A DNA stretch of 43,338 bases, filler included, from Jimgerdemannia flammicorona (Eukaryota): the NCBI GenBank assembly GCA_003990765.1. It is 2 parts of 2 records of this genome, joined end to end, with 100 filler letters (N's around TTAATTAATTAA, not from the genome) between each part and the next. Parts side by side here need not be neighbours in the genome. Positions count along the whole stretch, not along the records: positions 1 to 21,623 come from RBNJ01001420.1; 1 more part is not named here. One strand, written 5' to 3'. Made by a program: the position numbers and the translations under genes. Shown here one piece after another: positions 1 through 35,764 of the stretch (its first letter is position 1; each line of letters begins with the position of its first letter). The notes beneath the pieces are model-generated. The model searched no databases and was not told where the DNA came from. It saw only the letters and a list, made by a program, of their open reading frames with translations.

Positions 1-194
1 TGGTTGCTACTACTGCGGTTCCTTGATCCTTCTTTTATATTCTTCAGGATGCTTGTGCTGTGGTCACAATGACTCACAGTTGGTCATCATTGCTCATCTC
101 GTATGCTGTATGATCTTCTTGTGCTTCAATCTGGTGGCTTGCAAGGAAAGGCTGTCTCCTGTGCTGATGTCATCATTCTGGAGTCACCGTTACA
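1..194 (-). mobile_element. 5' end of an LTR of family A (second copy, continuing out of the window to the left)
   Basis: Reverse complement (TGTAACGGTGACTCCAGAATGATGACATCAGCAC...) aligns with the LTR starts at 7639 and 14894. It is preceded on the minus strand by TTAT rather than the PPT, so it is a 5' or solo LTR. Confidence 0.92.

Positions 195-411: not shown

Positions 412-479
<68 letters not shown>
195..479 (+). mobile_element. Decayed 3' end of a non-LTR (LINE-like) retroelement with a long poly(A) tail
   Basis: G-rich decayed sequence, AATAAA, a small GACTC-T-GAGTC hairpin, then about 60 A (about 415-479). Truncated on the left by the family A LTR. Confidence 0.55.
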
Positions 480-482
<3 letters not shown>

Positions 483-1151
483 ATGTTTGCCAACCAGATA
501 ATAAATAAAATAACAGAATAGATGTTTGCTGACCAGATAATAAAATAATAGAATAGTTGTCAGGTATCAGTTATAGAGGTATTTGTCAACCAGATAATAA
601 ATAAAATAATAGAATAGTCATCAGACTTCAGTTACAGAGATGTTCACTGACTAGATAATAAAAAATAGAATGATCTTAAGGGTTCAGTTACAGAGATATT
701 TACCAACCAGATAATAAATAAAATGGTCATCAGGCTTCAGTCACAGAGACATTCACTAACCAATAAATAAAAAAAGTAGAATGGCTATAAGGCTTCAGTC
801 ACAGAGATATTCACCAACTAATAATAAAATAAAATAAATAGAATGGCTATAAAGCTTTAGTCACAGAGATATTTACCAACCAGATAAAATAATAGAATAG
901 TCATCAGGCTTCAGTTATAAAGACATTTACCAATCAGATAATAAAATAAATAGAATGGTCATAAGGCTTTAGTCACAGAGATATTTACCAATTAGATAAT
1001 AAATAGAATAATCATATGGCTTCCATTACAGAGATATTCACTAATGATGAAATAAAATAAGTAGAATGGCCATAAGGCTTCAGTCATAGAGATATTTGCT
1101 GACTAGATAAAATAATAGAATAGTCATCAGGCTTTGATCACAGAGACATTC
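480..1151. repeat. Minisatellite, about 55-62 bp unit, roughly 11-12 copies (one more unit at about 1913-1972)
   Basis: Recurring AGAGATATTCACCAACCAGATAATAAAATAAAATAGAATGGTCATAAGGCTTCAGTCAC-like unit with transition differences between copies. Confidence 0.9.
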
Positions 1152-7638: not shown

Positions 7639-9188
7639 TGTAATGGTGACCCCAAAATGATGACATCAGCACAGAAGACAGTCTTTCCTTGCAAGCCACT
7701 AGATCAGAGTATAAGGAGATCATATGGTATACAAGATGAGCAATAATGACTAACTGTGAGTCATTATGACCACAGTATGGGTATCTTGAGGAATATAAAA
7801 GAAGAATTAAGGAACCACAGTAGCAGCAACCAATAAGACCCACTAATCCCAAAATAGCTCAAAGACTTACCATAAATGAAATGTCTGCTGCTTGCCAAAC
7901 CTCAAGGTCAAGGAACTACCAAGGCACCTCAGTTGAAGAAAGGATATTCCAAGATATCAGAAGAGCCATGAGAATCTATTCAAGAAGGACTCCTAGTGTC
8001 AATCTGGATACTGGTAACTCTTATCATTATATCCTCTACTGCTGTGAAATGGAAACAAGGATCACCATTGCTATCAAATACCTCCAAATATGGCAGAAGT
8101 ATGAGATAAGAAACCTCCTCTACCAGGAGTTCCCACAGGCCAGCACTCAAGAGCTACAAGATGCCATTCCCATGGATATATATGAAACAAGGACAGCTAA
8201 GAAGATCCATCAGATCTTCAGATATGCACCATGGTTGATCTCCAACTTGGAGTATATTAGAGTCTCAGACTTCAGAGACCTGTCAGCCCACCATATCAAT
8301 ATACTAGAAGCCAGAGTGGCTACAGAAGCCCAGTCTACTATCACTCTCAATAGTGATGAAGTAGAAGACTTCTGACATCCCATCCTCCAGAACAACCCAG
8401 ACCAATTCCTGCAAGGATTGATCTCAGTATTCTAAGACCCAAGTATCCAGGTTAGATCTCTCCAAGACCCCACATTTGTCCCCTATTTTGTAGAAGAGAC
8501 TCTCATAGACTAGAGAGCCCCAGACCTCCTTGTTCCCACTGCCACCAAATGTGATGATGTTATTGGTGATGATATCATCCTGTATGACATATGTGAGATG
8601 TGTGATATATATGAAATATATATGTGACCTATATAACAATGATGAATTTGCGGACCTCATCTTCTTTGAAGACATCCTGACCTCTGATGAGGATAAAGCC
8701 CCTATGGTCTTGAACATTCTGCTCTAAAGTCCTTTGGTTATACTGAATTATGTCAGCACCAGCATTCTGATGTGACACTGAATTATTTCAGTACTATTTT
8801 CCTATACTACTGAAATTATACCAGCATCCTGAACCTATACAACCATCAGTACCAACCCTGAAACTTAGCAGTTTTTCCTATCCTGACATTTTGTTTTAGT
8901 TATTGAAATTTATATTTAGCTTTATATCTTAGCAACCATTGAATTATATTTTATATAAATACCTCTCTTATTTCCTCTGAAATAAAGTCAGTTCATCTTA
9001 GTGCAATAATTCCTTATAAGCAATCTAAGAGATAATAAGACAGTTTAAAGATAAGAAGTTTGAGGACTATAAGACCTTGGGAAGATACTCCAATAAGAAC
9101 TTACTTATAACAAACTTGAGTTAGTCTAAGAGATATACCTTGAAGAGAATCTGGCATATTTGAAGGACTCAGCAATCACTATGTGACA
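7639..9188 (+). repeat. Element A 5' LTR (1550 bp)
   Basis: TGTAATGGTGAC...ATGTGACA; colinear with 14894-16445. TATA-like motifs at about 7794 and 8954; AATAAA at about 8981. Confidence 0.95.
7881..8727 (+). pseudogene. LTR-encoded accessory ORF, 5' LTR copy (consensus about 280 aa, unknown function)
   Basis: 164-aa open part plus continuation. Its stops (8373 TGA, a TAA, a TAG) and a 4-bp insertion are sense codons or absent in the 3' LTR copy. Confidence 0.8.
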
Positions 9189-9210
9189 ACTTAGTACCCA
9201 TTGGCTGGTG
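9189..9210 (+). promoter_or_regulatory. Probable decayed primer-binding site of element A (tRNA not identified)
   Basis: Position immediately after the 5' LTR; TAGTACCCATTGGCTGG could be TGG... after G>A decay. Confidence 0.35.
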
Positions 9211-9319
9211 ATTCAAGATGAATCTCTTACTTTCAAGCTGAAAAACAAATAACCACCACAACAACTACCCTGACTACAAGAGTCACCCCTGTAAGAATTC
9301 AAGATAAGATAAGATAGAA

Positions 9320-11308
9320 ATGTGCCTCCCCATATTCTATAGATATACTACTGAAGGGTCAATCCTGACCTTCATTGAAGACTTTGAACAATTTGCCACT
9401 ATATGATCCCTTGGTGTGGATGTACAATTGGCCCTTCTACCAGTCAGCCTCAGAAGACCTGCCAGAGATAAGTTCAATGCAGCCACTATTGCTGATAATG
9501 GTGCAGCCAAACTTGCCAACATGAAGGCCTTTCTCAGAACAACATACTATACTGAAGAGATCAAGCAAGCTCTCAAGGATCAACTCAATACTATCTGCCA
9601 GGGACTCAGTGAAGATCCCAACTCATTCTATACCCAAATCTGCCACCAGATTATCTTGGTTGGCTATGATGATGCCCTCAAGGAACAAATAGTGGATTCA
9701 ACCTTCCTCAAAGGAGTTCACCCTGAAATTGCTCTAGCAATCTAGTCTATCTCAGCTATACTGACCCTTGATCAGAAAGTGGTCTTTGCACAGAGATATT
9801 GAACTACCAGATATCCTGCTGAACACTTAATGGAAAAAATAACTGGCATCAAGATAGAGCCATCAAAGCCAACTAATATCATACCTGCCATAGTTGTAAA
9901 CAGACAACTATTCCCACCTACCCCCAAGACAACCAAAGCCGACCCAGTAGAGGAACTTGCCAAGTAGTTCACTGAGATGACTGTACATCTTGGTGATATT
10001 GTTAGAGAAGTCTGAAGTGCCAACAGGAGACCAGTGCAGAGATTTGCAGCTGCTACAGAAGAATGCAATATTATATACTTCAGATGTAGAGAAGAAGGCC
10101 ACTATGCAAAGAATTGTATGACCAAAACAAGATGCAAAGCTCAACCAAGCAATGCTAGCAGAACCAGAGAACAAATCAATGCAGTAGTCATTAAGGAGAT
10201 TAGTGATACTGATGATGAAGAATACTATGAAGAGCTCGAATTCTACCCTGCTACTAAAGGTACCAGAACCCAGTCCAAGCCCTATGACAAGAAGAGCAAC
10301 AGCAAGCCAGTTAGAAGACCAAAGAAGACCCCAGCTGTCACTATTCAAAGCAAGACTCAACCTGAGGAGATTGATTAAGATATGGAGTTAGATGAAGCTG
10401 CCTACCAAATCATTGAAGACACTACTCCAGTCTCAAGAGAAAGTGAAAGCAAGAAGGAATAGAAGCTGTGTAAGACCAAGATCCACAAGTATGATATCTA
10501 CAAGGATCTCAAGGAACAGAAGATCAATGCTACTTTTGGATAGCTAGCCAAAGTCCCTGCCTTCAGACAGTAGTTGATAGTAGGACTTACAACTACTGCC
10601 AAGAATTAAGAGTACAAGATTGTAGAAGCTCACAATGCACAGGAAGAATCAGAAGACTCAGGTGAAGAATCCAAAGACCAGTACAAGACATCAGCCTATA
10701 TCCCATGTCAGATTGAAGATTGTATCTTTGATGCCATCATTGATACTGGTGCTAGAGGATACCTCATGAGCAAGAAGACAATTGACTGCCTAGGATGGGA
10801 CATTGAAGAGTCCACCAAAATGATCTATGTCGCAGCAGATGGTATATGAGCTACCCTCCTTGGCAAAATCCAAGAAGTCCCCATCAAGATAGGAGGAGCT
10901 ATTATCTCAGTAGATGTGATTGTTACAAGCACCACCAACTATGACATCCTCATTGGCAACTAATGGCTTCATAAGACCAAGGCCATCATTGACCTCAATA
11001 CCCAGAAGATATAGATCAACTATAGAGGAAGAAAGGTACAAGTCTCTATCAATGTCCACAAAGAAGTCCTACCAGACATAGAGGAAGGAGATGAAGAGGA
11101 TACAGAAGTCTTCATGCACTTGGTGAATAAGAACAAGAACAAGAATAAGAACAAGACACCCAAGCTCACAGATGAGCAGTGGTACAACAAGATCATTGAT
11201 GGCTATACCCCTCAAGGAAGATGCCCCCATGGTACTAGAATGTACTGCTCTGAACACCTGAATGACTGCTAGTTCTGTATCAGTAAAGTCAGGAAAATCC
11301 ACCAATAA
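9320..11308 (+). pseudogene. gag: Element A Gag (capsid-like, CCHC knuckle) plus aspartic protease and a Cys/His module
   Basis: One frame from ATG 9320 with premature stops. LPIF...FIEDFEQFA capsid start, YFRCREEGHYAKNC knuckle (about 10076-10116), AIIDTGA protease site (DTG at 10742), and GRCPHG...DC*FC at 11222-11278. Confidence 0.88.
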
Positions 11309-11406
11309 AACATGAATAAGAAGCTGCTGAAGCAAAAAGGAAAGTTGAAGAAGATGACCAGCCCCCAGAGCTTCAAGCTGACAGTAATAATGAGGAGGAA
11401 TAAGAA

Positions 11407-11826
11407 CCAGATATCACCCTCAAGGTCAAGAAGTTTCACCCCAAAGCCAAGATCCCAGAATACAAGACTGAAGGAACCATAGGAATAGACCTTGCCAGCA
11501 TTCAAGATACTACCCTTGAACCACAGACCACCACCCTACTTGGTACTGGAATTGGAGTCAAGCTACCAGAGAACCATGCTGGAATTATTAAGACCAGGAG
11601 CAGTCTGGCCAAAAGTGAAATCTCAGTTGAAGGAGGAGTAATTGACCCTGATTACACTGGCAAGATCTTCCTCATAGTCAGGAATCACAACCCCACTACC
11701 CCATTTGAAGTCAAGAAGCATGACAGGATTGGCCAGATGCTGATCTATGAAATCAAAAAGCCCAAGATCACTGAAGCCATCCAACTCATCAAGACTAAGA
11801 GAGGAGAACAAGGCTTTGGATCTACT
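11407..11826 (+). pseudogene. dut: Element A trimeric-type dUTPase domain
   Basis: LKVKKFHPKAKIP...GIDL...RSSLA...GGVIDPDYTG...DRIGQM...RGEQGFGST: dUTPase motifs I-V, in frame with RT. Confidence 0.93.
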
Positions 11827-13351
11827 GAAAAAGGAGCCTATACTACTACCAAGATTACTGAACTTGAGCACAAGAAAGACAGGGACCAGAATAAGCACAC
11901 ATATACCATTAGAGAAAACTTTTCCCTGGAAGAACAACTTCTCAAGATCCTGCACCAGATTGAAGGAGTACTTGCTACAGACTTCAGGGATATCCACAAT
12001 CAAGAACCCAAGTACTACCATGAAGTTGACACTGGTGATACCAAGCCCATCTACCAGAAGGCCAGACCCATACCACCCACCTATAGAGAATGGCTGTGAG
12101 CAGAACTCAAGGAAATGGAAGAAGCCAGAATCATCAAGCAAGCTATTAGTCTCTGGGCTTCACCCATTATCCTCACTCCAAAGAAAGGAAGCAAGTCTAG
12201 AGAGTTTGCACCAAGACTCTGCATTGACTATAGGAAGCTCAATGCCATCACCAAAAAGGATAGGCAGCCCTTGCCAAATATTCAAGAAATCCTTACCACT
12301 CTTAGAAGTGAAGCCAAATACTACACCACCTTGGATCTGTTCTCAGGCTTCCATCAGATTGGTCTCACTCAAGATGCTAGTGAGAAATCAGCCTTCATCA
12401 TACCTGATACCATCTATATCTACCTGAGAATGCCATTTGGAATGTACAATACCCCAGCAAGTTTTCAGTGAATTATGAACAGAGTCTTTAGCAACAAGAT
12501 TGAAAAATGGCTCTTCATCTATGTTGATGATGTAATCATCTTCAGCAACACTGTATAGGAATATGTCAACTACATATAGCTAGCCCTCAAGAAGCTCAAG
12601 GAGCATAGCCTCTACATCAAGCCTAAGAAATATAAGTTTGCAGGCTCAGGAAATAACCTACCTAGGACATCTCATTAACCAGACTGGAATCCACACAGAC
12701 CCCATAAAGATTGAGACTGTTGTAGTCTACCTGAGACCCAGAACAACCACAGAAGTCTATGTCTTCCTTGGACTGGCCAGCTATTATAGAAGATTCATCA
12801 AAGGATACTCCAACATTGCAGCACCTATCTACAAGCTACTGAAGAAGGAAACCAAATTCAAATGGACTAAGAAATGCCAAGAAACCTTCAATAAACTCAA
12901 GACCAGATTGACCCAAGTACCTATCCTCAGAAGACCAGATTGGAACCTAGAATTCATCCTGCAGACAGATGCAAGTGCTATAGGACTTGGAGCAGTCCTA
13001 GCTCAGAAGAAAGATGGACATGAATATGTCATCCCCTATGCAAGCTAAGGTACCCACAGAGCAGAACAGAACTATGAGTCATGTAAGCTCAAATGCTTAG
13101 CAGTAGTTTGAGCAGTAGACAAGTTCCACTACTACCTAGTTAGGAAATACTTCACTGTTCAAACAGACCATTCTGCTCTTGTCTAGCTATTCCACACTCT
13201 AAACCCCAAAGAAATATATATCAGATAGATCTACAGGCTGCAAGAGTATGACTGTACTATCAAATACTGCTCAGGAAGAACCAATACCAATGCTGATGCC
13301 CTCTTAAGGATACCCTGAAATACCCCCATCAAGACTATTCAACATGAATAA
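11827..13351 (+). pseudogene. pol: Element A reverse transcriptase - RNase H
   Basis: SLWASPIIL, RLCIDYRKLN, LDLFSGFHQI, RMPFG, YVDD (12520-12531), YLGH, FILQTDASAIGLGAVL, TDHSAL, NADAL. Contains stops and one +1 indel near 12644. Confidence 0.95.
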
Positions 13352-14529
13352 GGAGTTATACTATGGATTAATCAGCTACCTTAGACAGCAGAAGATGCCC
13401 AACTACCTCGAACTCTGGACAATCACCATCATCAACTGGACTTGGAAACAGTTTGAACTAGACAATACTACACTTAGAAAAGGAGAAAAGCTAGTAATAC
13501 CTGAATACAAGAAGTATCAAATAATGAAGAAAGTATATGAGCAAGGATACCTAGGAGGAACTAACATATACAACAAGGCAAGAAGAACTATGTGGTAGCC
13601 CAAAATAGAAGAAAACCTGTACCAATTTGTCAAAGGGTGTGATAAGTGCCAAAAACAGAAACAAGATCAGCAAGACTAGATATCTGGGTCATCAAGAATT
13701 GAGCCTATCCCCTTCCACCATATTACAATAGATATCATTGGGCCACTACCAGTAACACTATCAGGAAACTGCTATATTATAGTTATTGTAGACCTCTTTA
13801 CCAAATAGATAGAAGCAGGAGTATTACAAGAAGCCAATACCCTCTCTATAGCTGACTTCCTGCACTGAGAAATCATCTGCCACTACAAGACATCAAAGTA
13901 AATCACAACAGACCATGGCACAGAATTTGTCAATAGATTCCATGAGATAATGTATCAGAAATATAAGATTCAGTACATCAAGACTACCATATACCACCTT
14001 CAAGGAAATGGACAGACAGAGAGAACTAACAAGACCCTTAAGGACATTCTGGCAAAGATCTCAGAGATATATGAGAATTGAGATAACTACCTCCCAACTG
14101 CTCTCTCTATTCTACAAGACATACAGTCACAGAGCACACACTTTACCCCAAGAGAACTGCTCTTTGGAGAAGAAAATTCTAATAGAACCTCTAGACCTAA
14201 CTTGGAGATAGGTCAATGCAGAAATCTGGAGACTACACCAAATCAGGAAGAAGGTTGAAGATTATATTATCAAGTCACAAGTGCTGATAAGGAAAAATAC
14301 AGAAAAGAATCACAAGACCTTAGAACTTATCCAAATTAAAAAAAAGGTCCTACTATATTGAAATATAGTAGAAGCCTCATGGTTGCAAAAACTGGAGCCC
14401 AAATGGAAAGGACCCTTCTATATACAAGATATCAAGAGAACTACCTTCTGGCTTAGAAAAATCTCAGAGACCATACTGCCTACCACAGTACATAGGAACA
14501 GACTCAAGAAGTACTATGAACCTATATAA
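13344..14529 (+). pseudogene. Element A integrase, in its own frame with its own ATG
   Basis: MNKELYYGLISYL start, decayed HHCC (...CDKCQK at 13638), IDIIGPLP, TDHGTEF, YHLQGNGQTERTN, and GPY/F motif KWKGPF (about 14401). No chromodomain. Confidence 0.9.
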
Positions 14530-14883
14530 GAGAAGCAAAATATGATGACTGCCCATGAGGTTTTAGTCCATAAATCATAACAGCATATCCTGTGATCAGC
14601 AGGCTATCTGTCTTGATCATTCTCTAAGAGATATGGTACCAATAACTACTCATCCATGAGACTTTTGAAGCCAGAGGAGTTTGAACCATCAACTGATTAG
14701 TCAAGATCAGAATCAGGCCCTTGCTCTATATGAAGGGAGCAATCCTTCACTATTACACCAAAATACAAAGGGAAGATGCCAGCCCATAAACACCACTTTT
14801 CAACCCCTTGCCAGAGGTTATGGGATCAGCAAATTTTTCAGGATTGGACCAATAAATAAGGACATTCAAGAAGATCCTTATTC

Positions 14884-14893
14884 AGGAGAAAGA
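14884..14893 (+). promoter_or_regulatory. Polypurine tract of element A
   Basis: AGGAGAAAGA directly before the TG of the 3' LTR. Confidence 0.85.
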
Positions 14894-16445
14894 TGTAATG
14901 ATGACCCCAGAATGATGACATCAGCATAGGAGACAGCCTTTCCTTGCAAGCCACCAGATCAAAGTACAAGGAGATTATACAGCATACAAGATGAGCAATG
15001 ATGATCAACTATGAGTCATTGTGACCACAGTATGGGTATCTTGAGGAATATAAAAGAAGAATCAAAGAACCATAGTAGCAGCAACCAACAAGACCCACTA
15101 ATCTCAAAATAGCTCAAAGACTTACCACAAATGAAATACCTGCTGCTTGCCAAACCTCAAGGTCAAGGAATCACCAAGGCATCTCAGTTGAAGAAAGGAT
15201 GTTCCAAGACATCAGAAGAGCTATGAAAACTTACTCAAGAAGGACTCCTAGTATCAACCTGAGTACTGGTGACCCTTATCATTATATCCTCTACTGCTGT
15301 GAAATGGAAACAAGGATCACCATTACTACCAAATGCCTCCAAATGTGGTAGGAGTATGAGATAGGAAACCTCCTCTGCTGGGAGTTCCTACAGGCCAGCA
15401 CTCAAGAGCTACAAGATACTATTCCCATAGATATATATGAAACAAGGATAGCTAAGAAGATCCATCAGATCTTCAGGTATATACCATGGTCGATCTCTAA
15501 CTTGGAGTATGTTAGAGTCTCAGACTTCAGAGATCTATCAGCCCACCATATCAATATACTAGAAGTCAGAGTGGCTATAGAAGCCCAGTCTACTATTACC
15601 CTCAATAGTGATGAAGTAGAAGACTTCTGGCATCCCATCCTCTAGGACAACCCAGACCAATTCCTGCAAGAATTGATCTCAGTATTCCAAGGCCCAAGCA
15701 TTCAGATTAGACCTCCCCAAGACCCTACATTTGTCCCCTATTTTGTAGAAGAGAACCTCATAGACTGGAGAGCCCCAGACCTCCTTGTTCCTGCCACTGC
15801 CAAACATGATGACATCATTAGTGATGATGTCATCTTATGTGACATATGTAAGATATGTGACATACATAAAACATATGACCTATATGATAATGATGAATTT
15901 ACAGACCTCATCTCCTTCAAAGACATCCTGACCTCTGATGAGAATGAAGCCCCTATGGTCTTGAACATTCTGCTCTAAAGTCCTTTAGTTATACTGAATT
16001 ATGCCAGTACCAGTATTCTGATATGACACTGAATTATTCCAGCACCATTTTTCTATATTACTGAAATTATACCAGTATCCTGAACCTGTACAACCATCAG
16101 TGTCAACCCTGGAACTTAGCAGTTTTTTCTGTCCTGGCATTTTGTTTTAGTTATTGGAATTTATATTTAGCTTTATATCTTAGCAACCATTGAATTATAT
16201 TTTGTATAAATACCCCTCTTATTTTCTCTAAAATAAAGTCAGTTCATCTTAGTGCAATATATACAATTCTTTGCAAGCAATCTAAGAGATAACAAGACAG
16301 TTTAAAGATAAGAAGTTTGAGAACTATAAGATCTTGGGAAGGCACTCCAATAAGAACTTGCTTATAACAAACTTGAGTTAGTCTAAGAGATACACCTTGA
16401 AGAGAATCTAGTATATTTGAAGGACTCAGCGACTACTATATGACA
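14894..16445 (+). repeat. Element A 3' LTR (1552 bp)
   Basis: TGTAATGATGAC...ATATGACA followed by the TTAT TSD. Confidence 0.95.
15136..15978 (+). pseudogene. LTR-encoded accessory ORF, 3' LTR copy
   Basis: 843 nt in one frame. The start is ATA (ATG in the 5' LTR); TAG stops at 15349 and 15643 are CAG in the 5' LTR. Confidence 0.8.
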
Positions 16446-16729: not shown

Positions 16730-18598
16730 ATGGCGACTCAAGACTCATCGAGCTCAGAGTGCCTAGAGAGGAGGAGGCCTGGCTTGGGCCTCCCCAAGAG
16801 TTTTGCGGCGGCAGCTGGTCAAGGTGGAGCGGGAGGGCAGGCTGGAGGTCAAGGACTGGCAGCAGGACTGGATGGTTGGCACATGGTGATAGGAAATAAG
16901 TGGGCGACCTCTAGGCCTACAATTGTAGGGCAGCAGGGGCATAGTGTTGACAGGGGTGGACGTCAGGTGACTGGTCAGCTAACTGGCCAGGGCCCCAGCA
17001 GGGGTCAGGGGTCTCGGGGCGTGATGACGGGGACTGGCTTTCCTGGGGCTGGGCTGGTGGCTGGGGGTAGGACTGCTGGTGGCACAGTAGCCCCTGGCGA
17101 GACAGTAGTGGGCATTTCTAGCAGCAAGAACAAGGCAACCCTGGCAGCAGGAATGGGGGAGCTGGTGGTACGACCTTTTTTCCATAAGTCAGTATCGTCG
17201 TGGGCAGTCTCCGCCAACTTTTTGGGCCTTGGTCTGTCGGCCAAGGAAGTTCTATGACTGGTGGGTGAGGAGGTTGCAGGAGCTGAGTCGCTGAGGTTTA
17301 TCCCCTCAGCCGAGGCAGTGGAGGTCGGGTTCATTAAGGAGGAGGCTATAGTGAAGGCCCTGGAGAAAGGGTTGATGGTCAAGAATGTTAAGGTGGGGAT
17401 GGCAAGGTACTTGAGGTGGGACCCATGTGCAGTGAGGTTGGTGGTGGAAGGTCTGCCAACACTGAGCAGGCAGGAGACTAAGATGGTGGTAGCAAAGGCT
17501 CTGGAAGGATTTGGCGAGATGGTGGATTTTGGATTTATGTTTTGGGAGGGCACTAAGTTGAGGAATGGCAACTGTGAGGCGATGGTGTGGCTGGAGGGAA
17601 AGGAGGCAACAGGTCTGGGGCAAGACTGGCCAGAGGTCATTCGTGTTGGGGAGCAGGACTGCCGGGTCTGGAGGAGGAAAGGCTCTGAGCAGGAAGAGGA
17701 GGAGCTGCTGATAGCCCTCGAGGAGCGTGATGAGGCAAAGGCTATGCGGAAAAGGAAGTGGGAGGAATTTGCTAAGAATTGGATCTGGATCGAAACAGAT
17801 GGCAAGAGGAAGCATTGGCATAGAGCGAACTGGGAGCGGCTGCAGGCAGTGCTGAGAGCATCTGAGGAGGAGGAGGTGGAAAGGGTAGCGTCGGACAGGA
17901 ATCGAATGGAAGGGGTGGAGGCAGCGGAGGTGTCCTTCTCGCAGTTGGGGGGAGTGGAAGAATCCGTGCATGCACCGGTGACAGGGAAGTGGGCAGATGG
18001 TGAGGAAGAGCGAGGAGAAGGGTTCGAAGAAATTGTAGAGGTGGTTCCCGAAACTCCAATGGAAGACACAGTGATGGCTAGGTCGGCAAATGTGCACTGG
18101 GAATGTCCAGAAGCAGGGGAGGTGGTGAGGTTGGAAAAGGTCTCTGAAGAGGATGAGCTGGTGGATGTCGCTTCAGATGTTTCTGCGGACAGGGAGCTGC
18201 TTCAGGAACTTTGCCGGACTCCCAGGCCTGCAACTCCGGGGCCAATGGCAATGGTGGCAGATGGTTGGTTCCAGGCAGTTCTGGAGGAACTGACGGAGGA
18301 TGACATTAAGGAAGTGGATGTGTTTCAGGGCTCTCCGGAGGCGTGGGAAGGATTTCTCAAGGTGGCGATGCAGGGACTGAAGCTGGTGACTGCAATGGTG
18401 GCGGCCCTGCTGGAGGATGAAGGGTACGAGGTGGATGAGGACCGAATGGCAGATATCTGTAAGGTTGCGTCGGAGCGAGTGGACTTCTTCTGTGGCAGTG
18501 TCAATGGCGAAAGAATTTGGCGAGCAGTCTGTGAGGAGCGTCGAGACATCATTAAGGGCCGAGCTGAGAAGGTGGCGGCAGTGGCGGCGGATATCTAA
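16730..18598 (+). pseudogene. LINE ORF1 (about 620 aa; RRM-like core, acidic coiled C-terminal half), one premature TGA
   Basis: ORFs 16730-17257 and 17261-18598 share a frame. SFAAAA N-terminal motif and VRLVVEGLP...ALEGFGEMVD...GTKLRNG...PEVIRVG are typical of L1/Tx1 ORF1. Confidence 0.8.
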
Positions 18599-18613
18599 AC
18601 TCCAAAATTTTTC

Positions 18614-21600
18614 ATGATGAAGTACAACCTACGTATTCTGTCCATTAATGTCAATGGTTTGTGAGATAGTGTGAAGCGGCGGCGTCTCTTTCGATGGTTG
18701 AAGGTTTGGAGGTATGATGTGGTATTTCTTCAAGATATTCGGGCCTATGGGGAGGAGGACTATGAGGAGTGGAGTCGGGAATGGTTTGGGAACACAGGCT
18801 GGAGTAAGCAAGTTGGTATTCTGGTTGGAGTTGGGAAGGGGGAGTTAGTTGATGTAGAATGCTTTGGGGATCGTCTGGTGTGGGGAAGGCTGAAGGGAGG
18901 GAAAGGAGATGGGCTTTTGGTGGGCTCGGTATATCTGCCAGCAGTTGGCAGAGAGTGAAAGCAATGGGTGGAGGAGTGGATGGCCTGGGAGGATTGGGTG
19001 GCTCTAGGGTTAGACATTTTGGGGGGTGACTTTAATATGATTAGGGACCATGCACTGGATCGGTCTGATGGCAGGGCTGGGGTAGCGGTTTCTCCTGGGC
19101 TGTCTCAGTGGCTTCAGGTGGAGAGGGGCATGGGATTGGTAGATGGGGTACGTTCGAGGGTGGGAGACAGGTTAGGGCCCTTTACCAGGTGGTACTCTAT
19201 AGACAATGGGATGGTCGGTACGCGGATTGACTGGGTGTTGGTAGCTGAACATTGGGGTAATGTATTTGATAGGGTCGGTGTACAGTGGTGCCCATGGTCA
19301 GACCATTGGGGAGTGGAGGTGAGTGGGAGATTCCAGGCTGTTAATAGAGGAGGGGGGCGCTGGCGTCTCAATGTGGCACTGCTCCGGCGTCTGGTGGAAC
19401 GGGAGCAATTTGTATACATGGCCCGACAGGAAGTAGAGCATTGGGTGGCTGGGGGTCTATCTATTGTGGATTGGTGGGGCAGATTCAAACACCTTGCTGG
19501 TGCTTATTGGAGAGACACTGGGGAAGTGGCTGGAAAGGAGCAAATGGACAGGGAGAGGAGAGTTGACAGGGGATTGCGGTGGCGGCTGAAACTATTGGAG
19601 GATGGTTCACTAGCAGAAGAGAGGAAGGGACAACTTGCTAGAGAGGTAGTCGACCTACAGGCAATCTTGAGAGAGGCTGAGGATCGAGTTATGGATGGGC
19701 TCCTGGTGCGCCTAAGGGCTAGACGACTGGAAGAGGGTGAAAGACCAACTAAGTACTTATCTGGTGTCTTGAAGGCGAGGAATGTTAGACATAGCTGGTC
19801 TTCAGTTTTGCAAGAAGATGGTGTCGAGGTTACCAGTGTAGCAGATATGTTGGAGGAGATCTCAGGACAATGGCAGACTCTTTGGAGTGATGATGATATG
19901 GGTGGAGGTGTTGGAGTAGAGGAGGTTGCCGAGGCTCCTCTAGTACATAACTGGCCGGTGGTGTCACAACTGGAGATTGGAGCATCAGTGTTTGGCAGAG
20001 TGTCTTTAGAGGAGATATTGGAGGTTCTGCAGAAGGTACCGAGCGGTTCCTCACCAGGGGAGAATGGCCTCCCTTGGGAATTCTGGAAGGAGTTTAAGGT
20101 GGAATTTGGAGCTTGGCTTGTTGAAATGGTTAATTTCATACTAGAGGAAGGACAGTGGATTGGGAATAGTAGTTTAGGTCTGGTGTCTTTGTTGTATAAG
20201 GAGAAAGGTGACAGGAGGGAGTGGTGCAACTGGCGGCCGATCATGCTGCTAAACGTCGACAGGAAGCTAGTCTCGAAAATCTTGGTAGGGAGGTTGCAGC
20301 AGTGGATTGGAAGATTGGTAGGGGAGGAACAGAGGGGCTTTGTGAAGGGCCGGCAGATCAGGGACAGTACTGCCTGGGTGCAAAACGTTTTGGAGGGCTG
20401 TAGAAGTAGGCAGATTGATGGGAGGATGGTCTTTTTGGATCAAGAGAAGGCCTATGACAGGGTACGGTGGTGTTACCTAGAAGCAATTCTCCAGAAAGTC
20501 GGCTTTAAGCTGGAAGAGGTTAGATGGTTGATCTGATGAATGGCTGGAGCGGCCCAGAGTTTTCTTTAGGAAGAGGGGTTCCACAAGGGGACCCACTTTC
20601 GCCGCTTCTTTATATCCTCTCACTAGAACCGGTGCTGGCATGGCTGAGAGAAAGGCTGAATGGACTGCATATAGGTGAGGTGGTTTGGAAGCTGGGGGCC
20701 TTTACTGACGACATAGTGGTAGGGCTTGGTAGCATCGAGGACATGGACATTTTGCGAGAAGGAATCGAACAGTATGAAGGGTTGGCGGGGGCAAAGTTGA
20801 ATTGGGGGAAGTGTGAAACCTTAGAGCTTGGTGCAGGCTTAGGGGTAGCAGGGCTTGGACGAGTGGTGCCTAAGGAGGAGGCAGTCAGATACTTAGGGAT
20901 ATGGTTTTCGGTGTTTGGGACAGTTCTGCCAAAGGAGTGGTGGAGTTCTATGGTACAAAAATGGGAAGGGGTGTTGACAGGCTGGGCTGGTCAAAACTTT
21001 TCTCTAGTAGGAAGAGTGGTGGTTCTGAATGTATACTGGCTGCCAAAGCTGTGGTACTTGGGTTACCATCTAGATTTTCCTGGTTGGGTGGTGCGGCGTC
21101 TCAAGAAGGCTATGGAAGGGTGGCTCTGGAAGGGTAGGCGACCGCAGATTGGATGGGATGCATTGGTGCTGCCGATTGCTGATGGTGGTTTGGGGTTGGT
21201 GGACTTTCGGCAAAGGTTGAAGGCACTGCGGGGATGGTGGGGTCGCCGACTTGTGGAGCTAGGGGAAGCGAACTGGGGCAGATTAGCAATGGACAATTGG
21301 GAGATTAGGTTCTGCCCCCAGAGTGCGGAGAGGAAGGATTTGCGAGGGCTACTTCAGATCGGATCTGTGGGGAGGATGCGGTTCAAAGGGTTCTGGTGGG
21401 GCATCGTTGAGGCCTGGCTTATGATGGGCCTGACAGGGCCAGAGGTAGAGGTGATAGAGGAGGGGGCAGACCCTGAGCAGCGGTGGTGGCGACTCAAATT
21501 ACTTAGGGTGGGAGGGAAGGAGCTGAAGGATTATTCTCTGGTTGAGGCGATGGAATGGGCCAGATCAGGCCCTCTTGAGCGGTGGCCAGTAGGATGGCAG

Positions 21601-21623
21601 ACAGCTGGTATCGGCGAGATGTG
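18614..21623 (+). pseudogene. LINE ORF2: APE endonuclease plus reverse transcriptase
   Basis: LRILSINVNGL, DVVFLQD, SVYLP, GGDFN, RIDWVL, SDH (APE); SSPGENGLP, NWRPIMLLN, EQRGFVKGR, LDQEKAYDRV, GVPQGDPLSPLLY, AFTDD, RYLGI (RT). TGA stops at 18659 and 18956, and a deletion/frameshift near 20530. Confidence 0.95.
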
Positions 21624-22326: not shown

Positions 22327-23602
22327 TGTGACAAACCAAATATATCACCCAAATTATATCTTAACCAGATGACATAAACAATTAGCCAAGATGATGTGAA
22401 CATACAGTATAGTAACTAGTAACCATTGCTGCAGAAAACTGTATAAATAGCCAGACATACCAGAAAGGGTCTGTTTACCTGTACAGACTCTGTACACCTG
22501 CTATAAGTAGCAGATCTATAGTTAGCCACATAGTAATCAGATAGCAACCAACTTGTATAAATTACCCCAGAGACAAGAGTGAATAAACCTCAGTCCGAAA
22601 TACAAATACCAAAGAAACCTCTAAAGATTGAGCATTGGTCCCCTTTCTACTCCAGTCCACTTTCTGATACAAAGCCTGAAGATTTGCTGCCCAAGTTCGA
22701 GTGAAGAACTTCACTATCTTTTGAAGAGAAACCCGCTGCTTAAGGAATAAGCCACAATATTGGTTTGCTTGCCAGATAAGCCTGAAGATTTCTGCCTAAG
22801 AGAAAGCCACCTTGCTCAAGCCAGTTTCTGACACAACTTCGCAGTAATTCATTGTGCAAACGAAGCCAGTCTTTAATATAACTTTGCCAAGAGACCCTTT
22901 CCATGCCATCATATTCCCAGAAGAGCCTACCAATTCAGGAAGAATCTGTGACATCCGCCATTTCTAAGTTATCTACCACATTCCCAGTTGAAGCCAATTC
23001 AGGAAGAATCTGTGCACCCAAGTATTATTCCCAGAGAGCCCAAGTTATCTGCGATATCTGAGTTATTCGTTATTCTCAGTGAGCCTAAGAAGAATCCACC
23101 GCCAGCATTATTCCCAATTATTCGAATTATCTACACCATCTGAGTTATTATTCCCAGAAAAAGAATCCATGTCATACAATTCCCAGTGAGCCAAATCGAG
23201 TTATCTACCAAATTATCAGGATGTCCGCATAAGGAACCCATCATGCTATACAGAGATTGTCACATCAAGATTGTTGCACTACACAGAGATCATCGCACCA
23301 AAGCCATCACCCAGAAATTGCATACTTTTGGAAATTGTCTTGCTATACAAAATTGTAGCATTCTCAGTTGACCCAAGAAGGAAACCTGTTCACATACACA
23401 AATTGCGCTACACCCAAGAACCTGTCCCAAAAAGGAAACTGCTCGCACAGAATCCAGATCTTGACTATTATACCACTAAACACTAAGGACCTCAGGAATC
23501 TTAGAATATTTTATTGCTTTTTGACAAAGTAACTGGGGGCTCAAGCCAAACTATATCAACTCCCAACCTTGTAATTTGCCTCCATTGAGCTGGCACATTA
23601 CA
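22327..23602 (+). repeat. Element B 5' LTR (1276 bp)
   Basis: TGTGACAAACC...CACATTACA; TATAAA at about 22442 and 22556, AATAAA at about 22582. Confidence 0.95.
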
Positions 23603-23604
23603 TT

Positions 23605-23622
23605 TGGGGGTTCAACTGGGAA
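23605..23622 (+). promoter_or_regulatory. Primer-binding site, tRNA-Pro type
   Basis: TGGGGGTTCAACTGGGAA, 2 nt after the LTR; copy C has TGGGGGCTCAACTGGGAA. Resembles the tRNA-Pro PBS TGGGGGCTCGTCCGGGAT. Confidence 0.75.
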
Positions 23623-23635
23623 GATTTCAAAATCA

Positions 23636-26600
23636 ATGTGACTTTTTAGCTCACAAGAACCCACAGTCAAACTGGATACATTTGACACAACACCAACCTC
23701 TGCTACTACAGGAGAACCAGTCATCACTAGCATTTGGACAGGAAGAGAAGTAATCACATCAAAACTTGCCAACTACTCAGCATCAGAAGGATCCCAACCA
23801 GAAGCAGGAGGCAGTATAGTCCGAAATCCCCAACCAGATCAACCAGACAATACAGGCAGCCCTGTTAGAGATTTTGAAGAACTTGTACAAGAACTAGAAG
23901 ATCTTATCACACAAACCTGAGACCTTACAGCCAGATGCCCCACACCAGCCCTACTAATTTCACCAATAGAACCTTTACCACAACCCCTTGCAGAATTGGA
24001 AGTAGCTCCTACAAGAATACCTAGGCTTATTCCACTTCGTCCAAGATCCAGAACACCATTCTCAAGATACCCAAGTATGCCTGTCTCTAGTGACAGCTCC
24101 AAAAGTAAATCAGAATCAGAATCTGAACTTGAACCTGAATCAGAAGAAAGTGATGATGAAATGGCCACCTCATTGCCAACCTTTGCAGGATACCCAGAAT
24201 AAGACTCCAGAGAATTCCTTGATGGAATTGAAGGAATTGCAGCCTTGAGGAATCTCTCAGATGAAAGAAAAATTGCCATCTACAAGGCTCAGCTCAGAGA
24301 ACCAACCAGAGGAATTTTCCAACAAACAGCAAACAACCCAGATTCAGAACTGGCAAGACAGATACAAGCAGCAATGTCTTATGAGCTAGAATATGAGGCC
24401 ATGGTCCACTGGCTCATTGAAAAGTATGCAGGAAATGAAACCCATCACAAGGCTCAGGAATCCATCATGGGGATGAAGATGAATCTTGGAGAATCACCCA
24501 GAGTCTTCTTCACAAGAATCCAGAAGAGAATGCATTCTGCCGGGTTCAATGCCACCAACCAGGACATCATAGGTCTAATGACCTTCATGAATGGAATTCC
24601 CCCGAATATTGCCCAGTATGTCTGAAACCTAGGCATCAGAAGGTCTAAAGAGCAAGTAGATGCAGCTCAAGGATTCTTTGATGTCAGACAAGGAACTACC
24701 TGGAGTGATCATGACAAAAAGGAAGATATAGAAGACATCCTGGTCAAAGCCCTACAAGGACTTCTTCAAGGACAAGAAAGATCTGAAGAAAGAAGGCCAG
24801 TCAAGGAAGGAAAGAAGGATAGAAGTGAAATCCAAGACCTCAGCTCCAAGTTGAACTGATTGGTTGGACAAATTGAAAAACTCACTATATGTAAAAACTG
24901 GAGCTACCAAGATAATAGAGGATACCCACCACAGAGGAGCCAAGGTTATCCACTAAGAGATAACAGGAATTACCAGCAAGAAGAAAGAAGGTACTCTGTC
25001 TGACACAGAGCCCAAGTCCAATGCTTCCACTGTGGATAATTTGGACACTATACTACTGAGTGTGACAACAAAAGAAGTGACTGAAGGGACTCAGAACCAC
25101 CAAACCGAAGGAATGACACTCAGTACAAGAAGACTGAAGTCTATCCTGTTGAAGATTTCGAAGAAGCAAGCAACAGTGAAGACTACAGCGACCTAGACTT
25201 GTACCCCACTAAGGTTACAACCTGGAAAACAGTCTACCCGGCAGAGAAGAGGAAGAGACCAGTAGGAAGGCCATCCAGGAACATCAGCAGAAGAATTATC
25301 CAAGAGGAGGAGGAAGAACATGAAGAGGAACAGGTAGAAACATCTCTCTGAACCCCCTCACCTTTTGTTCCCAAGACAAACGAGTTACCACCAGAGGATG
25401 AAGAAATGGAACAAAAAGAACGAGAACCTGCTGTCCCAAAGCCCAAGAAAAAGTACACCCCAAAGACCATACCTAGAGACATCTACAATGAAGCTTGGCA
25501 GAAGATCCAAGAGGCCAAGATGGAAGTTCCCCTCCTGCAGTTCTTGCAATTGACACCAGCTGGAGTCCGAAACAAATTACTGAGAACCACCAGGTCTAGT
25601 ACTGACTGAGTCCCAATCCCACAGCAAGAACTAGTTCCCATCTCTGTTCAGGCATGTCAGCACCTACCTATGTGGGGATATTGGAGGACAAAAAGCGAAG
25701 ATTCTCATAGACACAGGAGCAGCTATCTGTATCATTGCTAAATGATTCCTAGACACCCTTCAATGGCCCATTGATGGACCATCCAACCTCAGCATCATAG
25801 TAGCAGATGGAGCCCGAACTCAACTCCTTGGAGAAGTACGAAATATCACCATCTCTCTTGGACACATTCAGTTCTCCATCCCCAAAGCTGTTGTCACTGA
25901 GGCTGTTACCTATGACATGATTCTTGGTACCAACTGGATGAAGGAAACAAATGCAGTTGTTGATATTGGCCAATAAGTACTCAAGATTGACTACCGAGGC
26001 AAGAAGTACAGAGTTAAGGTGACCAGCTATGAGCAATCAAAGAAGAAGAAGAAGATCACTATTCAGGAAGAGTATTCCAGTAGTGAAGAATCCACCACAG
26101 AAGAAGAGGAAGAATCCGAAGATGGAAATGATCCCAGACTCAATCCCCGAATTAACCTGGTGGATGACTGACCAGAAGATAATGTGTGGGCCAAGAACAC
26201 TAACCCTATTACCATTGGAGCTATTGCAGGAGAAGCCAAAGGATGGCCTATATGCCTCAAGAGACACAAGTGTCCCAAGTACTCCTCCAAGATCATGGGA
26301 ACAAGGAAATTGCCTGGCATAGCCTGCCCAGAGTGCAGAAGGAAGAAGACGAAATACAGATATGTTCCAGAAACACCTGCAATCAAAGCTACAGAAGTAC
26401 AAGCAATTTGGGGTCAAGAATCATCTGAGGAAGAAGAAACTTCTGACCAAGAAGTTCCTGAACAAGAAGCACCTTAAGAAGAAGAGATTCCAGAACTCAT
26501 TCCCTGAGATGACTCTTGCTGGATACTACCTGAAGACAATGACCCTTGGAATACAGAAGAAGGACCCAGTACAATCACCATTATCCCCAAGAAAGAAACT

Positions 26601-28145
26601 CACCAAGAAAAGGCTTTTTGGCTAGGAAGATGTCTACACCAAATGGTCTCCCACTCTCCCCAAGACTACTGCTATCAGTGTCACCTATTGGATCAACAGG
26701 AAAGGCAGAGACCCCAGAGACCAGAACCTCCAACTATACTTGCACAGTCTACCACCTTTCAAGAAGTCACTACAAAGTTACAAAGTCGATTTAGGGGACA
26801 AGGCTTCTTCACCTGAACAGAAATATACCCCTTATCTACCCTTCCCCCAACTTATGATCAAAATGGATACCAATTCCCAAGACAACAAGAGATAAATAGC
26901 CAGGAACATCATTTTCGAGCAATGGGATATTGCAACCATGGGAGACTCCCTAACTGCCGAGACTGCAGACACCAGAAGATTCACCTCAGTCATGATGTTG
27001 CAGTGCACACTTTGAAGAAAGGAGATAACTAAAGCCAGATCCGAAAAAGCTGGAAAAGCCAGACCAAGAAGCCAGGAAGAAGAATCCTCAAGATCTACAA
27101 TTTGGAAGAAGACATCCTAGCTCTCATTAGACATGCAACCCACCAAGGATGGGCAGAAGATGCTGCCAACTTCATGGAAGCCCTAGACCCTATAGAAAGA
27201 AGGGGAATTAACTACCTCCGAGACCCCTCTACTGGAGCCAGATGGCCACACCTCAACCTTAGAGCCTGGAGGCTTTCCACTAGTGGAGCTTCAGCCTTAG
27301 GAAAGCCTGAACTCAGCAAGGATATTGCCCAGTATGCCCTGCTGCACCCTAAGGCCAAACCCCCGACCAAAGCCCACCCAGAGGATGTAGGATATGATCT
27401 TCACAGCCTGGAGGATGAATCTAACAAGCCTGGAAAAACCTTCATGGTCAGAACTGGATTAGCCATGCAGCCACCCCAAGGAGCTTATATTCAACTGACC
27501 TCAAGGTCTGGACTTGCCAGATAAGGGATAACTGTAGAAGGAGGAATCATTGACCCTGAATATACAGGCGAAATCAAGGTTATCCTATACAACAGTAGTG
27601 CAGAATGGCACCAAATCATTAGAGGACAGAAGATTGCCCAAGCAGTCTTCATGAAGGTCAAGACCCCACAGTTACAGGAAGCCCCTGAACTAACTGAAGA
27701 AACAAGACAGGCCAAGAGATTTGGAAGTTCAGACAGGAAGGAGGTGCATCTCCTTCAAGTCAATCACCTCAAGAGGAATGTTCCCCAGCAAGTGTACTGG
27801 CAACCAGTCAGACTGCACAAGAATCTCATCCTAGAGCCCAGAGAACAAACTACCTTCAAAATCTTTGCACCACCCGATCCCAGAAACCTTTTCTTTGAAC
27901 CCAAGGAAGATATCCCATACCTGGACATAGAGGGACACACATTTCCTGACAAGATGAACCCAGTACACTCCCGAGCAACCAACCAAAGTTGGGAAACCAT
28001 CATCTTGCCAAAAGGAACCATCATAGGACATCTGGTGCCTTTTCTCAACCAAACTCATAGGGAAGTTTATGAACTAAACCTCTTGGGAAATGGCAACAGA
28101 TCCCAGAAGAAAGGAAAGGCCCCTCTGCGACCCAGGAGACAGTGA
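23636..28145 (+). pseudogene. gag: Element B ORF1: Gag (CCHC) - protease - Cys/His modules - dUTPase - dUTPase-like domain
   Basis: LPTFAGYPE.DSREFLDG capsid region, CFHCG*FGHYTTEC knuckle (25022), ILIDTGA (DTG at 25710). Single frame once an 11-nt deletion near 25652 (sequence present in copy C) is restored; ends PLRPRRQ* in B and PLRLRRQ* in C. Confidence 0.88.
27330..27731 (+). pseudogene. dut: Element B dUTPase domain
   Basis: LLHPKAKPPTKAHPEDVGYDL...RSGLAR*GITVEGGIIDPEYTGEIKVIL...GQKIAQ...RQAKRFGSS. Confidence 0.92.
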
Positions 28146-29557: not shown

Positions 29558-30621
29558 ACCAGAAGAAGGGTGTCCCGAGGAACTACACCCTAAAGGAAGC
29601 TTCTCAGACCATCAAGGCACAAGAAGATCTCATCCATAAAGAACATCAGAAAGCCCATCAAGGACAGACAAGTACAGAAGATAAGATTCGAAAACTATAT
29701 CAACACTGGCCTCACCTCAGAACTCAAGTCTGAGACATCATCCAGAAATGTGACACTTGCCAGAAGTACCAAGAAAAGAAGAACTATCAAGCCCCTTTGC
29801 AACCGATTCCCCCACCCACTCACATCTTTCAGAGATGGGTAGTAGATGTAATTGGACCTCTACCAGTTACACCAAGAAGAAACAAATACATTCTTGTATT
29901 TGTGGAACATCTGACCAAGTGGCCCAAGGCTTTCCCAATGGAAATCGCAGATGCCTTAACCATTGTAGGCCTCCTCCATGGACTCACACTCAGAGATGGA
30001 CCCCCAGAAGAACTCATATCTGACTGAGGCATGGAATTCATCAACAACATAATTACAAGTTATGCCTGAATTCACAAGATCCACCTCAAAAGGACCACAT
30101 CATACTACCCCCAGACCAATGGCATGACAGAGAAAATGAACCAGACTATCAAGAAAGGACTTGCCTGAGTCAATCCTACTAATTGGGACCTCTGCTTACC
30201 TGAGATCCTATGGGAAATTCGGAACACGCTTGCCACCTCCACCAAACAAAAGTTATTCAAAATGATGTTTGCCAAAAGAACCAGAACTACTGACCATGAG
30301 AATCTTGGAGACCTCCTCAAGAAGGCAGAACAGTTACATAATCAAGCCTGAGGACAGATTATCAAAGCCCAAGAAAGACAAAAGAAGTACTATAACCAAA
30401 AACAGAAGGATCAGAAGATCAAGATTGGAGATCAAGTACTAGTTTGGAGAAGCATAATTGAAATGAATTTTGCTGCCAAACTGGAACCCAAATAGGAAGG
30501 ACCTTATTTTGTACACAATATCAAAGGAACCAGTATCTATTTAAGAAGTATGGATGGACGAACCCTGAGAACACCAGTATACATCAATCACCTCAAACTG
30601 TATCTCCCCTCTACACTATGA
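29554..30621 (+). pseudogene. Element B integrase as a separate ORF
   Basis: ATG overlaps the RH stop (ATGA). HQKAHQG...CDTCQK (HHCC), VDVIGPLP, LISD*GMEF, YYPQTNGMTE, K*EGPY; ends at TGA 30619-30621. Confidence 0.92.
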
Positions 30622-31052
30622 GCCAAAGGATTGATCAGCACCTCCAGACATTGGTCCTCAGCTCCTTCTAAGCCTTACCAGTCCCTCTACCCCAATTTGG
30701 CCAAGCTAATGGAAGCCCCCTTCTGAGGATCCAAGCTCATCAAGAAAATCTCACCTTGATCAGATGCCTACTACAAGTCCACCAACTGCAGGCCTATTAT
30801 GCAATCAGTGAACAATTGCAGAACCTCCCAGCCCCAGAGCAGACCTACATCAGGAACACCACAGGTCTGACCAGAAGAGACACTACTGCCACAGACAGAC
30901 TATATACCATTTACAAACGAAATGTCACAGCCCTGACACAGGCACAATTATCCCTGAATGACATTCAAGGAATGAACCCTATTACCTATTTGAGCATCAT
31001 CAACTCTGTCGAAATCCTATTCCCTGAAGAAGAAGAAGAGCCCATAGAATAG
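30618..31052 (+). pseudogene. Element B accessory ORF3 (144 codons, unknown function)
   Basis: ATG overlaps the IN stop (ATGA). The single premature TAA at 30669 is CAA in copy C, and the frame is conserved in C. Confidence 0.82.
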
Positions 31053-31160
31053 AGTGACCCTAGTATGGACAATAAAGATGATAGAACAGGTATAGATGCA
31101 GAAGTAGCCTATGCTTATTGAGATGGCAACTGAAGAATAGTCTGGGACAGACTACCCTTC

Positions 31161-31172
31161 AGTAGGGGCTGA
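31161..31172 (+). promoter_or_regulatory. Polypurine-tract-like sequence of element B
   Basis: AGTAGGGGCTGA directly before the 3' LTR; copy C has AGTGGGGGCTGA. Confidence 0.7.
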
Positions 31173-35645: not shown

Positions 35646-35764
35646 TCAGCCCCCACTGTAGATAGTCTGTCTCAGACTGTTCTTCAGTTATCATCCCAAT
35701 AAGTATAAGCAGCTTCTGCATCTATACCTATTCCATCATCTTCATTATCTGTACTATGATCACT

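What the first reader, a model, noticed from the sequence alone, without database searches (positions are those of the whole stretch)
7881..8727. A 280-aa protein-coding ORF inside the LTR (U3) of family A
Seen: the two LTR copies carry complementary lesions. Every stop in one is a sense codon in the other, ATG survives in the 5' copy, and the frame survives in the 3' copy (15136-15978), giving a 280-aa consensus with a helical core, a Pro-rich linker, a CDICEMCDIHxxCD Cys pattern and an acidic tail. A TATAAAA about 85 nt upstream is present in all three LTR copies in the window, separate from the TATA/AATAAA near the LTR end. Established: LTR-borne ORFs are known in retroviruses (MMTV sag, nef overlap) but are rare in retrotransposons. 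Inference: even solo LTRs would spread an expressible gene.
Basis: partly seen in the sequence, partly recalled or inferred. Interest (0 to 1): 0.75.

Follow-up and report, generated by a model that had tools for sequence, protein, structure and literature searches.

The report
Accessory gene inside fungal retrotransposon LTR
The long terminal repeat of this fungal jumping gene, normally only a control region, carries its own conserved protein gene of unknown family, which related elements keep either inside or just outside the repeat and which most likely regulates the element.

Summary
The gene is real; the Cys motif is not. The LTRs of a Ty3/Gypsy element (7639-9188, 14894-16445) hold a 280-codon frame in U3. 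Both window copies are broken, but 38 of 139 listed genome matches are stop-free, 4 of them TSD-flanked solo LTRs with TATA, ATG and AATAAA. Homologues (28-63% identity) occur in three more families of this fungal genome and in metagenomes. Purifying selection shows between families, not within family A. In one family the gene lies outside the LTR, just before the polypurine tract, with its own TATA, so the LTR boundary has shifted across a promoter-plus-gene cassette. ORF and RT trees disagree, implying exchange between lineages. The 'CDICEMCD' pattern tracks CpG decay of an Arg repeat. The protein is soluble: basic N-terminus, helical core without a recognised family or fold, acidic-aromatic tail. 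Best guess: a trans-acting regulator working like foamy-virus Tas (about 50%); expression and function are untested. The scan noted this family before on other pieces of the same genome.

The parts
7639..9188 (+). 5' LTR of element A (TG...CA, 1550 bp)
   Evidence: followed by PBS-like site shared by 16 of 68 copies classed as 5' LTRs
7794..7800 (+). Upstream TATAAAA, candidate promoter of the LTR gene, 87 nt before the ATG
   Evidence: kept in 61 of 66 copies; TATA-like boxes 62-80 nt before the ATG in related families
7881..8727 (+). Accessory gene, broken copy (three stops, one 4-nt insertion); basic N-terminus, helical core to about residue 212, acidic tail
8520..8660 (+). Decayed repeat part of the tail: Arg/Asp/Glu-rich and CpG-rich in little-decayed copies, where it also holds TGACGTCA sites; source of the apparent Cys motif
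8737..8832 (+). About 35-bp tandem repeats between the stop codon and the main TATA; candidate enhancer or response elements
   Evidence: 2 copies here, 4 in L035; array length varies among copies
8954..8986 (+). Main LTR TATAAAT and AATAAA, 27 nt apart; places the gene in U3
   Evidence: 64 of 66 and 60 of 66 copies; 45-bp, 80% match to the same module in the short ORF-less LTR of family f3
9189..14893 (+). Decayed internal region: PBS, gag with CCHC knuckle, dUTPase, RT, RNase H, integrase, purine tract; no further long open frame before the 3' LTR
   Evidence: Pfam; integrase read by eye; frame test
14894..16445 (+). 3' LTR of element A
   Evidence: 152 of 153 differences from the 5' LTR are transitions
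15136..15978 (+). Second copy of the accessory gene (frame kept, ATA start, two stops)
1..194 (-). Start of a third family-A LTR, cut by the contig end; holds the upstream TATA, not the gene
30618..31133 (+). Family-B ORF between integrase and purine tract (171 aa in an open copy); similar build, kinship not established
   Evidence: (hhalign probability 1.9%, E 0.025)

Best explanation
A selected accessory gene of a fungal Ty3/Gypsy lineage, carried as a cassette (TATA box, short leader, about 270-285 codons). In family A the purine tract lies upstream of the cassette, so reverse transcription copies it into U3 of both LTRs and every solo LTR. In the genomic RNA it would sit behind gag-pol, so it needs its own message: a roughly 1.2-kb RNA from the upstream TATA to the LTR AATAAA (inferred). 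The product most likely is a nuclear trans-acting regulator that works like foamy-virus Tas: the helical core with its basic N-terminus recognises the element's own U3 (for example the family-specific tandem repeats before the main TATA), and the acidic-aromatic tail recruits host transcription machinery, switching the element on in a genome that methylates and deaminates its repeats. Shown: gene, selection, position, promoter-like motifs, protein build. Inferred: transcription, nuclear location, DNA binding, activation.
For: Open frame far beyond chance. Selection between families: transversions at 4-fold vs 0-fold sites 19/63 vs 44/384 for A vs L152 (p 2.6e-4), 15/56 vs 16/380 for L152 vs L069 (p 4e-7), 20/77 vs 43/399 for f3 vs L151 (p 7e-4). 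TATA-like box before the ATG in A (61 of 66), f3 (11 of 12), f4 (9 of 10), metagenome locus L151. No hydrophobic 19-residue stretch above 1.07 in 10 of 10 proteins; first 40 residues net +4 to +8 in 7 of 10; last 70 residues hold 12-23 D/E and 10-16 F/W/L/Y in 10 of 10, although tails barely align. Family-specific tandem repeats in U3 of A, f4 and B. Tas has an internal promoter and a C-terminal acidic activation domain (PMC517496, passages).
Against: No family or solved relative supports DNA binding: no Pfam hit over a cut-off for 26 aligned members, none in PDB by sequence. The N-terminus is not basic in 3 of 10 proteins and the whole proteins are acidic (pI 4.3-5.0). Comparisons with f4 and within family A show no significant selection signal. 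f6 has a TATA-like box in only 2 of 8 copies, and no U3 repeat array was found in f3 upstream of its main TATA. Precedent for caution: the snakehead retrovirus 3'ORF, long taken for a Tat, proved dispensable for transcription (PMC12193657, abstract).
Confidence: 0.5

Rival explanations
1. Antagonist of host silencing: the protein binds its family's repeats or a host factor and shields copies from DNA methylation or small-RNA silencing, like plant VANC proteins (recalled) or retroviral Bet/Rem.
For: Heavy C>T load: T in 49% of cells in CpG-bearing columns and 8-18% in other contexts. Swapping between lineages fits an arms-race module. Family-specific repeat arrays.
Against: All sampled copies are CpG-depleted, open ones too (observed/expected 0.00-0.54), so protection is at best brief. 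The core is conserved rather than fast-evolving. No homology to known anti-silencing proteins.
Confidence: 0.2
2. Post-transcriptional helper: binds genomic RNA or Gag to aid export, packaging or trafficking, like CERV of Cer1 or Rev/Rem; the short tail motifs (F-x-D-L-I-x-F, P-x-x-L-N-F) would dock a host adaptor.
For: Arg-rich N-terminus suits RNA binding as well as DNA binding. Two short motifs persist inside otherwise variable tails of A, f3 and several metagenome members. A Ty3/Gypsy precedent exists (PMC10309623, abstract).
Against: CERV comes from a spliced message; here the cassette has its own TATA. The motifs are absent in f4 while acidity persists, which fits a composition-based activation domain better.
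Confidence: 0.2
3. The frame is a by-product: the DNA is kept as cis-regulatory sequence, or it is a captured host or transposon fragment carried passively.
For: No selection signal within family A; the tail codons double as TGACGTCA sites in little-decayed copies; lineages gain, lose or swap it.
Against: Second codon positions vary least in every between-family pair; homologues down to about 30% identity keep start, core motifs and stop; all homologues whose DNA was seen lie in LTR elements.
Confidence: 0.07

Closest known systems
MMTV sag (superantigen gene in U3)
   Same: Mostly inside U3 of the LTR, with a promoter inside U3 among its promoters (PMC4667437, passages).
   Different: Sag is a retroviral membrane protein acting on T cells (recalled). 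This is a soluble protein of a fungal Ty3/Gypsy element, wholly inside U3, with no detected homology.
Foamy-virus Tas/Bel1
   Same: 3' regulatory position, internal promoter, C-terminal acidic region (PMC517496, passages); similar size (recalled).
   Different: No detected sequence or fold link; DNA binding and activation untested here; Tas is not copied whole into both LTRs (recalled).
Additional ORFs (aORF/ORF3) of LTR retrotransposons
   Same: Extra gene at the 3' end, present in most copies, shared among distant lineages (PMC7264820, part 1 of 3 read; PMC5408684, passages, which also mentions dUTPase in bdelloid and basidiomycete elements).
   Different: In the parts read, aORFs lie in the internal region and are env-like, antisense or enzymes, usually from spliced RNA. 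Here the gene is sense, non-membrane, has its own TATA and lies wholly in the LTR in A, f2 and f4.
CERV of C. elegans Cer1
   Same: Novel regulatory protein of a Ty3/Gypsy element (PMC10309623, abstract).
   Different: Made by splicing and needed for RNA export; no homology detected; not described as LTR-borne in the abstract.

Membership tests
Ty3/Gypsy LTR retrotransposon (carrier element) | gag, then RT-RNase H-integrase order | tested here: met
   Pfam zf-CCHC (just under cut-off), dUTPase, RVT_1, RT_RNaseH in order; integrase motifs downstream read by eye
Ty3/Gypsy LTR retrotransposon (carrier element) | TG...CA LTRs, PBS, purine tract, short TSD | tested here: met
   4-bp TSD here and in 8 of 16 copies classed as solo
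Selected protein-coding gene | open frame beyond chance and purifying selection | tested here: met
   no signal within family A or against f4
Cys/His metal-binding motif | conserved Cys or His ligands in the tail | tested here: not met
   positions read Arg in little-decayed copies; P0023 has no Cys at all
env-like aORF / MMTV Sag | transmembrane or signal segment | tested here: not met
   highest Kyte-Doolittle 19-residue mean 0.64-1.07 in 10 proteins
MMTV sag-type arrangement | ORF in U3 with a promoter inside U3 | tested here: inconclusive
   position and TATA motif met; transcription start not observed
Foamy-virus Tas/Bel1 | sequence or fold homology | tested here: inconclusive
   no Pfam or PDB sequence hit; fold searches with a pLDDT 62.7 model gave nothing above background
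Foamy-virus Tas/Bel1 | C-terminal acidic activation domain | tested here: inconclusive
   composition fits in 10 of 10; activity not assayed
Foamy-virus Tas/Bel1 | binds response elements in LTR and internal promoter | not testable with these tools
   candidate repeats only
aORF-3S (sense ORF between pol and 3' LTR) | located in the internal region | tested here: not met
   not met for family A, f2, f4; met for homologues in f3 and L151

The most novel reading that the evidence does not exclude
An undescribed protein family acts as a self-encoded transactivator or anti-silencing factor of fungal LTR retrotransposons. It travels as a promoter-plus-gene cassette that moves in and out of U3 by relocation of the purine tract and is swapped between distant pol lineages, including a chromodomain-bearing one, so that hundreds to thousands of solo LTRs are free-standing genes able to act in trans.
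Probability: 0.35. Interest if true: 0.85.

Novelty: new variant of a known kind. Interest (0 to 1): 0.62.

Why it matters
LTRs are treated as non-coding, so annotation and LTR-based dating ignore coding constraint in them. Here a whole gene with its promoter is duplicated with every LTR and survives solo-LTR formation, the route by which hosts usually delete retrotransposon genes. Having in-LTR and internal forms of one gene in one genome makes testable how genes such as sag came to lie in U3. If the protein is a regulator, these elements are 'complex' in the retroviral sense. The false Cys motif is a general warning for reading methylation-decayed repeats.

Tried and rejected
RNA: no RNA holder listed; three runs laid as contigs, two only guessed to be RNA, show related LTRs but nothing on expression. 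Structure: model from 24 close copies pLDDT 37, not used; model from 34 diverse rows pLDDT 62.7, pTM 0.54; Foldseek PDB and viral 0 hits at E 0.001, wide alignment best Z 4.0, which neither shows nor excludes a new fold. ESM Atlas gave unnamed clusters at 0.90-0.91 and an unrelated mix for f6: leads only. Homodimer job: no answer. Search for longer, fused forms found only P0011 among 8000 scored candidates, weak evidence. Within-family dN/dS null; indel test weak and alignment-dependent (shared indels a multiple of three: 3 of 5 in the ORF, 2 of 12 behind it). A suspected third ORF inside element A was dropped: all six frames have majority stops across 20 copies. Kinship of the family-B ORF (probability 1.9%) and the L147 ORF (12.9%) is unproven. 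One copy of the repeat motif upstream of the ORF is within chance. A recalled resemblance of the core to hypothetical proteins of other early-diverging fungi was not tested. Eight paper searches listed no report of this family or of a whole ORF in a fungal LTR; most listings were seen as titles and abstract starts only, subscription journals and repeat databases were not covered, and no supplements were opened.

Full report
1. The element. Self-comparison shows a 1.55-kb direct repeat at 7639-9188 and 14894-16445, 89.5% identical, with TG...CA ends and a 4-bp target duplication. Between them lie decayed gag (CCHC), dUTPase, RT and RNase H and an integrase read by eye: a Ty3/Gypsy element. Of 153 differences between its LTRs 152 are transitions, and window CpG is 0.16 of expectation, so decay is dominated by cytosine deamination. 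The host is a fungus: it has many chitin synthase loci, one with the Cyt-b5, Chitin_synth_2, DEK_C build known from fungi (own knowledge). The window joins two contigs at about 21623/21724, so elements A and B need not be neighbours.

2. The observation. The 5' copy has ATG at 7881, three stops and a 4-nt insertion; the 3' copy keeps 280 codons, starts ATA and has two other stops. In 30 copies picked by DNA similarity, stops are 128 of 8346 codons in this frame and 387-830 in the others; columns with at least half stops number 2 against 10-30. The two are Trp columns at 15 of 30 and 17 of 30, which counts against a clean result but they are not fixed. A protein search gave 7067 first-look candidates (not a copy number); 38 of 139 listed matches are full-length and stop-free, all 38 were fetched and confirmed, 34 with the ATG. 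These were found through a protein query, which favours open copies, so 38 of 139 is no estimate for the family. A frame this long arose in 1 of 2000 simulated LTRs.

3. Position and promoter. TATAAAA 87 nt upstream is kept in 61 of 66 copies; a second TATAAAT and AATAAA 27 nt apart near the LTR end in 64 and 60 of 66. The gene therefore lies in U3 (inference from the usual LTR layout). Among the 38 open copies, 7 are 5' LTRs, 10 are 3' LTRs, 8 were classed solo by rule (6 with a 4-bp TSD; two are misclassified on inspection), 13 could not be classed at stretch ends. Four TSD-flanked solos also have TATA, ATG and AATAAA. About 35-bp tandem repeats lie between stop and main TATA.

4. The Cys motif is an artefact. 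It appears literally in neither window copy. Over 38 open copies, tail Arg rises with CpG retention (rho 0.79, p 3e-9) and Cys+His+Tyr falls (rho -0.60). No tail Cys is conserved among homologues. In little-decayed copies the same codons contain TGACGTCA sites, so the tail may double as enhancer DNA (inference).

5. A family shared by several lineages. Database searches gave a dozen unnamed metagenome proteins and nothing annotated. Using them as baits in the own genome revealed f2 (48-53% to A; 60-63% for its metagenome member), f3 (38-43%) and f4 (28-32%). f2 starts with TG after either a purine tract or an AT-rich target, so it is in an LTR; f4 lies in both 2350-bp LTRs of a complete element. 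In f3 the gene lies after integrase, its stop abuts the purine tract, and the 780-810-bp LTRs lack it (three contigs); metagenome locus L151 has the same internal layout. The f3 LTR matches the part of the A LTR behind the ORF at the TATA/AATAAA module (45 bp, 80%, E 1.5e-5), and 16 bases before the ATG are identical in A and L151. The simplest reading is that the LTR's left boundary, set by the purine tract, moved across a promoter-plus-gene cassette; the direction is not settled. A fifth family, f6, in the LTR of a chromodomain-bearing element, is a probable remote member (hhalign 60%, E 8.5e-5, 123 columns); the family-B ORF of this window and the L147 ORF are only weakly similar.

6. Selection and exchange. 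Counting transversions only, to escape deamination, family A alone shows nothing, as expected for bursts of dead copies. Between families, 4-fold sites change more than 0-fold sites (0.30 vs 0.115 for A vs L152, 0.27 vs 0.04 for L152 vs L069, 0.26 vs 0.11 for f3 vs L151); most pairs with f4 are not significant, probably through saturation. RT/RNase H groups f2 with f4, whereas the ORF groups f2 with A; forcing the other grouping is rejected (AU p 0.0008 and 0.008, nine rows each of 15 and 17). Caveats: groups were named after seeing the first trees, and f2 pol rests on one decayed copy, though four loci link f2 LTRs to the same f4-like internal region.

7. The protein. No Pfam family over cut-off, no PDB relative. 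The better model (pLDDT 62.7) is mostly helical with two short strands at the end of the core. All 10 proteins examined are soluble with an acidic, aromatic-rich tail, and 7 have a basic first 40 residues.

8. Mechanism. A 3' gene behind gag-pol needs its own message; the conserved TATA offers one, from either LTR or a solo LTR. Basic start, folded core, acidic-aromatic tail, internal promoter and family-specific U3 repeats together resemble foamy-virus Tas (PMC517496, passages). I put 0.5 on a transcriptional trans-activator, 0.2 each on an anti-silencing factor and an RNA or particle helper such as CERV (PMC10309623, abstract), and 0.07 on a passenger. The snakehead retrovirus 3'ORF (PMC12193657, abstract) shows that such guesses can fail. 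Nothing here demonstrates transcription, binding or activation.

9. Novelty. U3-borne genes are known from MMTV (PMC4667437, passages), and extra ORFs shared among retrotransposon lineages from plants and rotifers (PMC7264820, part 1 of 3; PMC5408684, passages). PMC10787394 (passages) reports U3 diversification in a fungal element and mentions no ORF there in the passages seen. Eight searches listed no account of this family. It is a new variant of a known kind. The scan noted the same family on many other pieces of this genome; those notes are not independent support. They were read after my core reading was recorded and supplied paper leads, the prompt to test remote paralogues and the dimer idea.

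Noticed in passing
window 17258-21623: GC-rich non-LTR retrotransposon (endonuclease-like plus RT; long open frames of 446, 525 and 383 codons), much less broken than the LTR elements; runs into the contig end.
   Followed up: no
window 22327-32504 and 35638-43325 (minus): Two copies of a second dUTPase-bearing Ty3/Gypsy family (B), 81.5% alike, with about 1.3-kb LTRs holding 18-bp tandem repeats and a 171-aa ORF before the purine tract that has a TATA 80 nt upstream in 7 of 8 copies.
   Followed up: partly
L147:3800-4411 (minus): ORF after the integrase of a sister lineage of A (pol about 60% alike); weak similarity to the core (hhalign 12.9%, E 0.002).
   Followed up: partly
L158:1212-3277: About 2.07-kb LTR of a chromodomain-bearing element with a 365-aa ORF (family f6); 4711 first-look candidates, many open.
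   Followed up: partly
L105:5985-9899: Short f3 element with both LTRs and the accessory gene but only about 1.4 kb between 5' LTR and gene and no pol hit: a non-autonomous form that kept the accessory gene.
   Followed up: no
window 34479-34535: 57-bp near-perfect palindrome (94.7% to its own reverse complement).
   Followed up: no
family A insertion sites (L001-L068): Targets are mostly TA-rich or (TA)n runs with 4-bp duplications; non-CpG cytosines are also mutated (CpA 18%, CpC 15%, CpT 8%).
   Followed up: partly
window 479-1151: AT-rich tandem repeat region next to the truncated third LTR.
   Followed up: no
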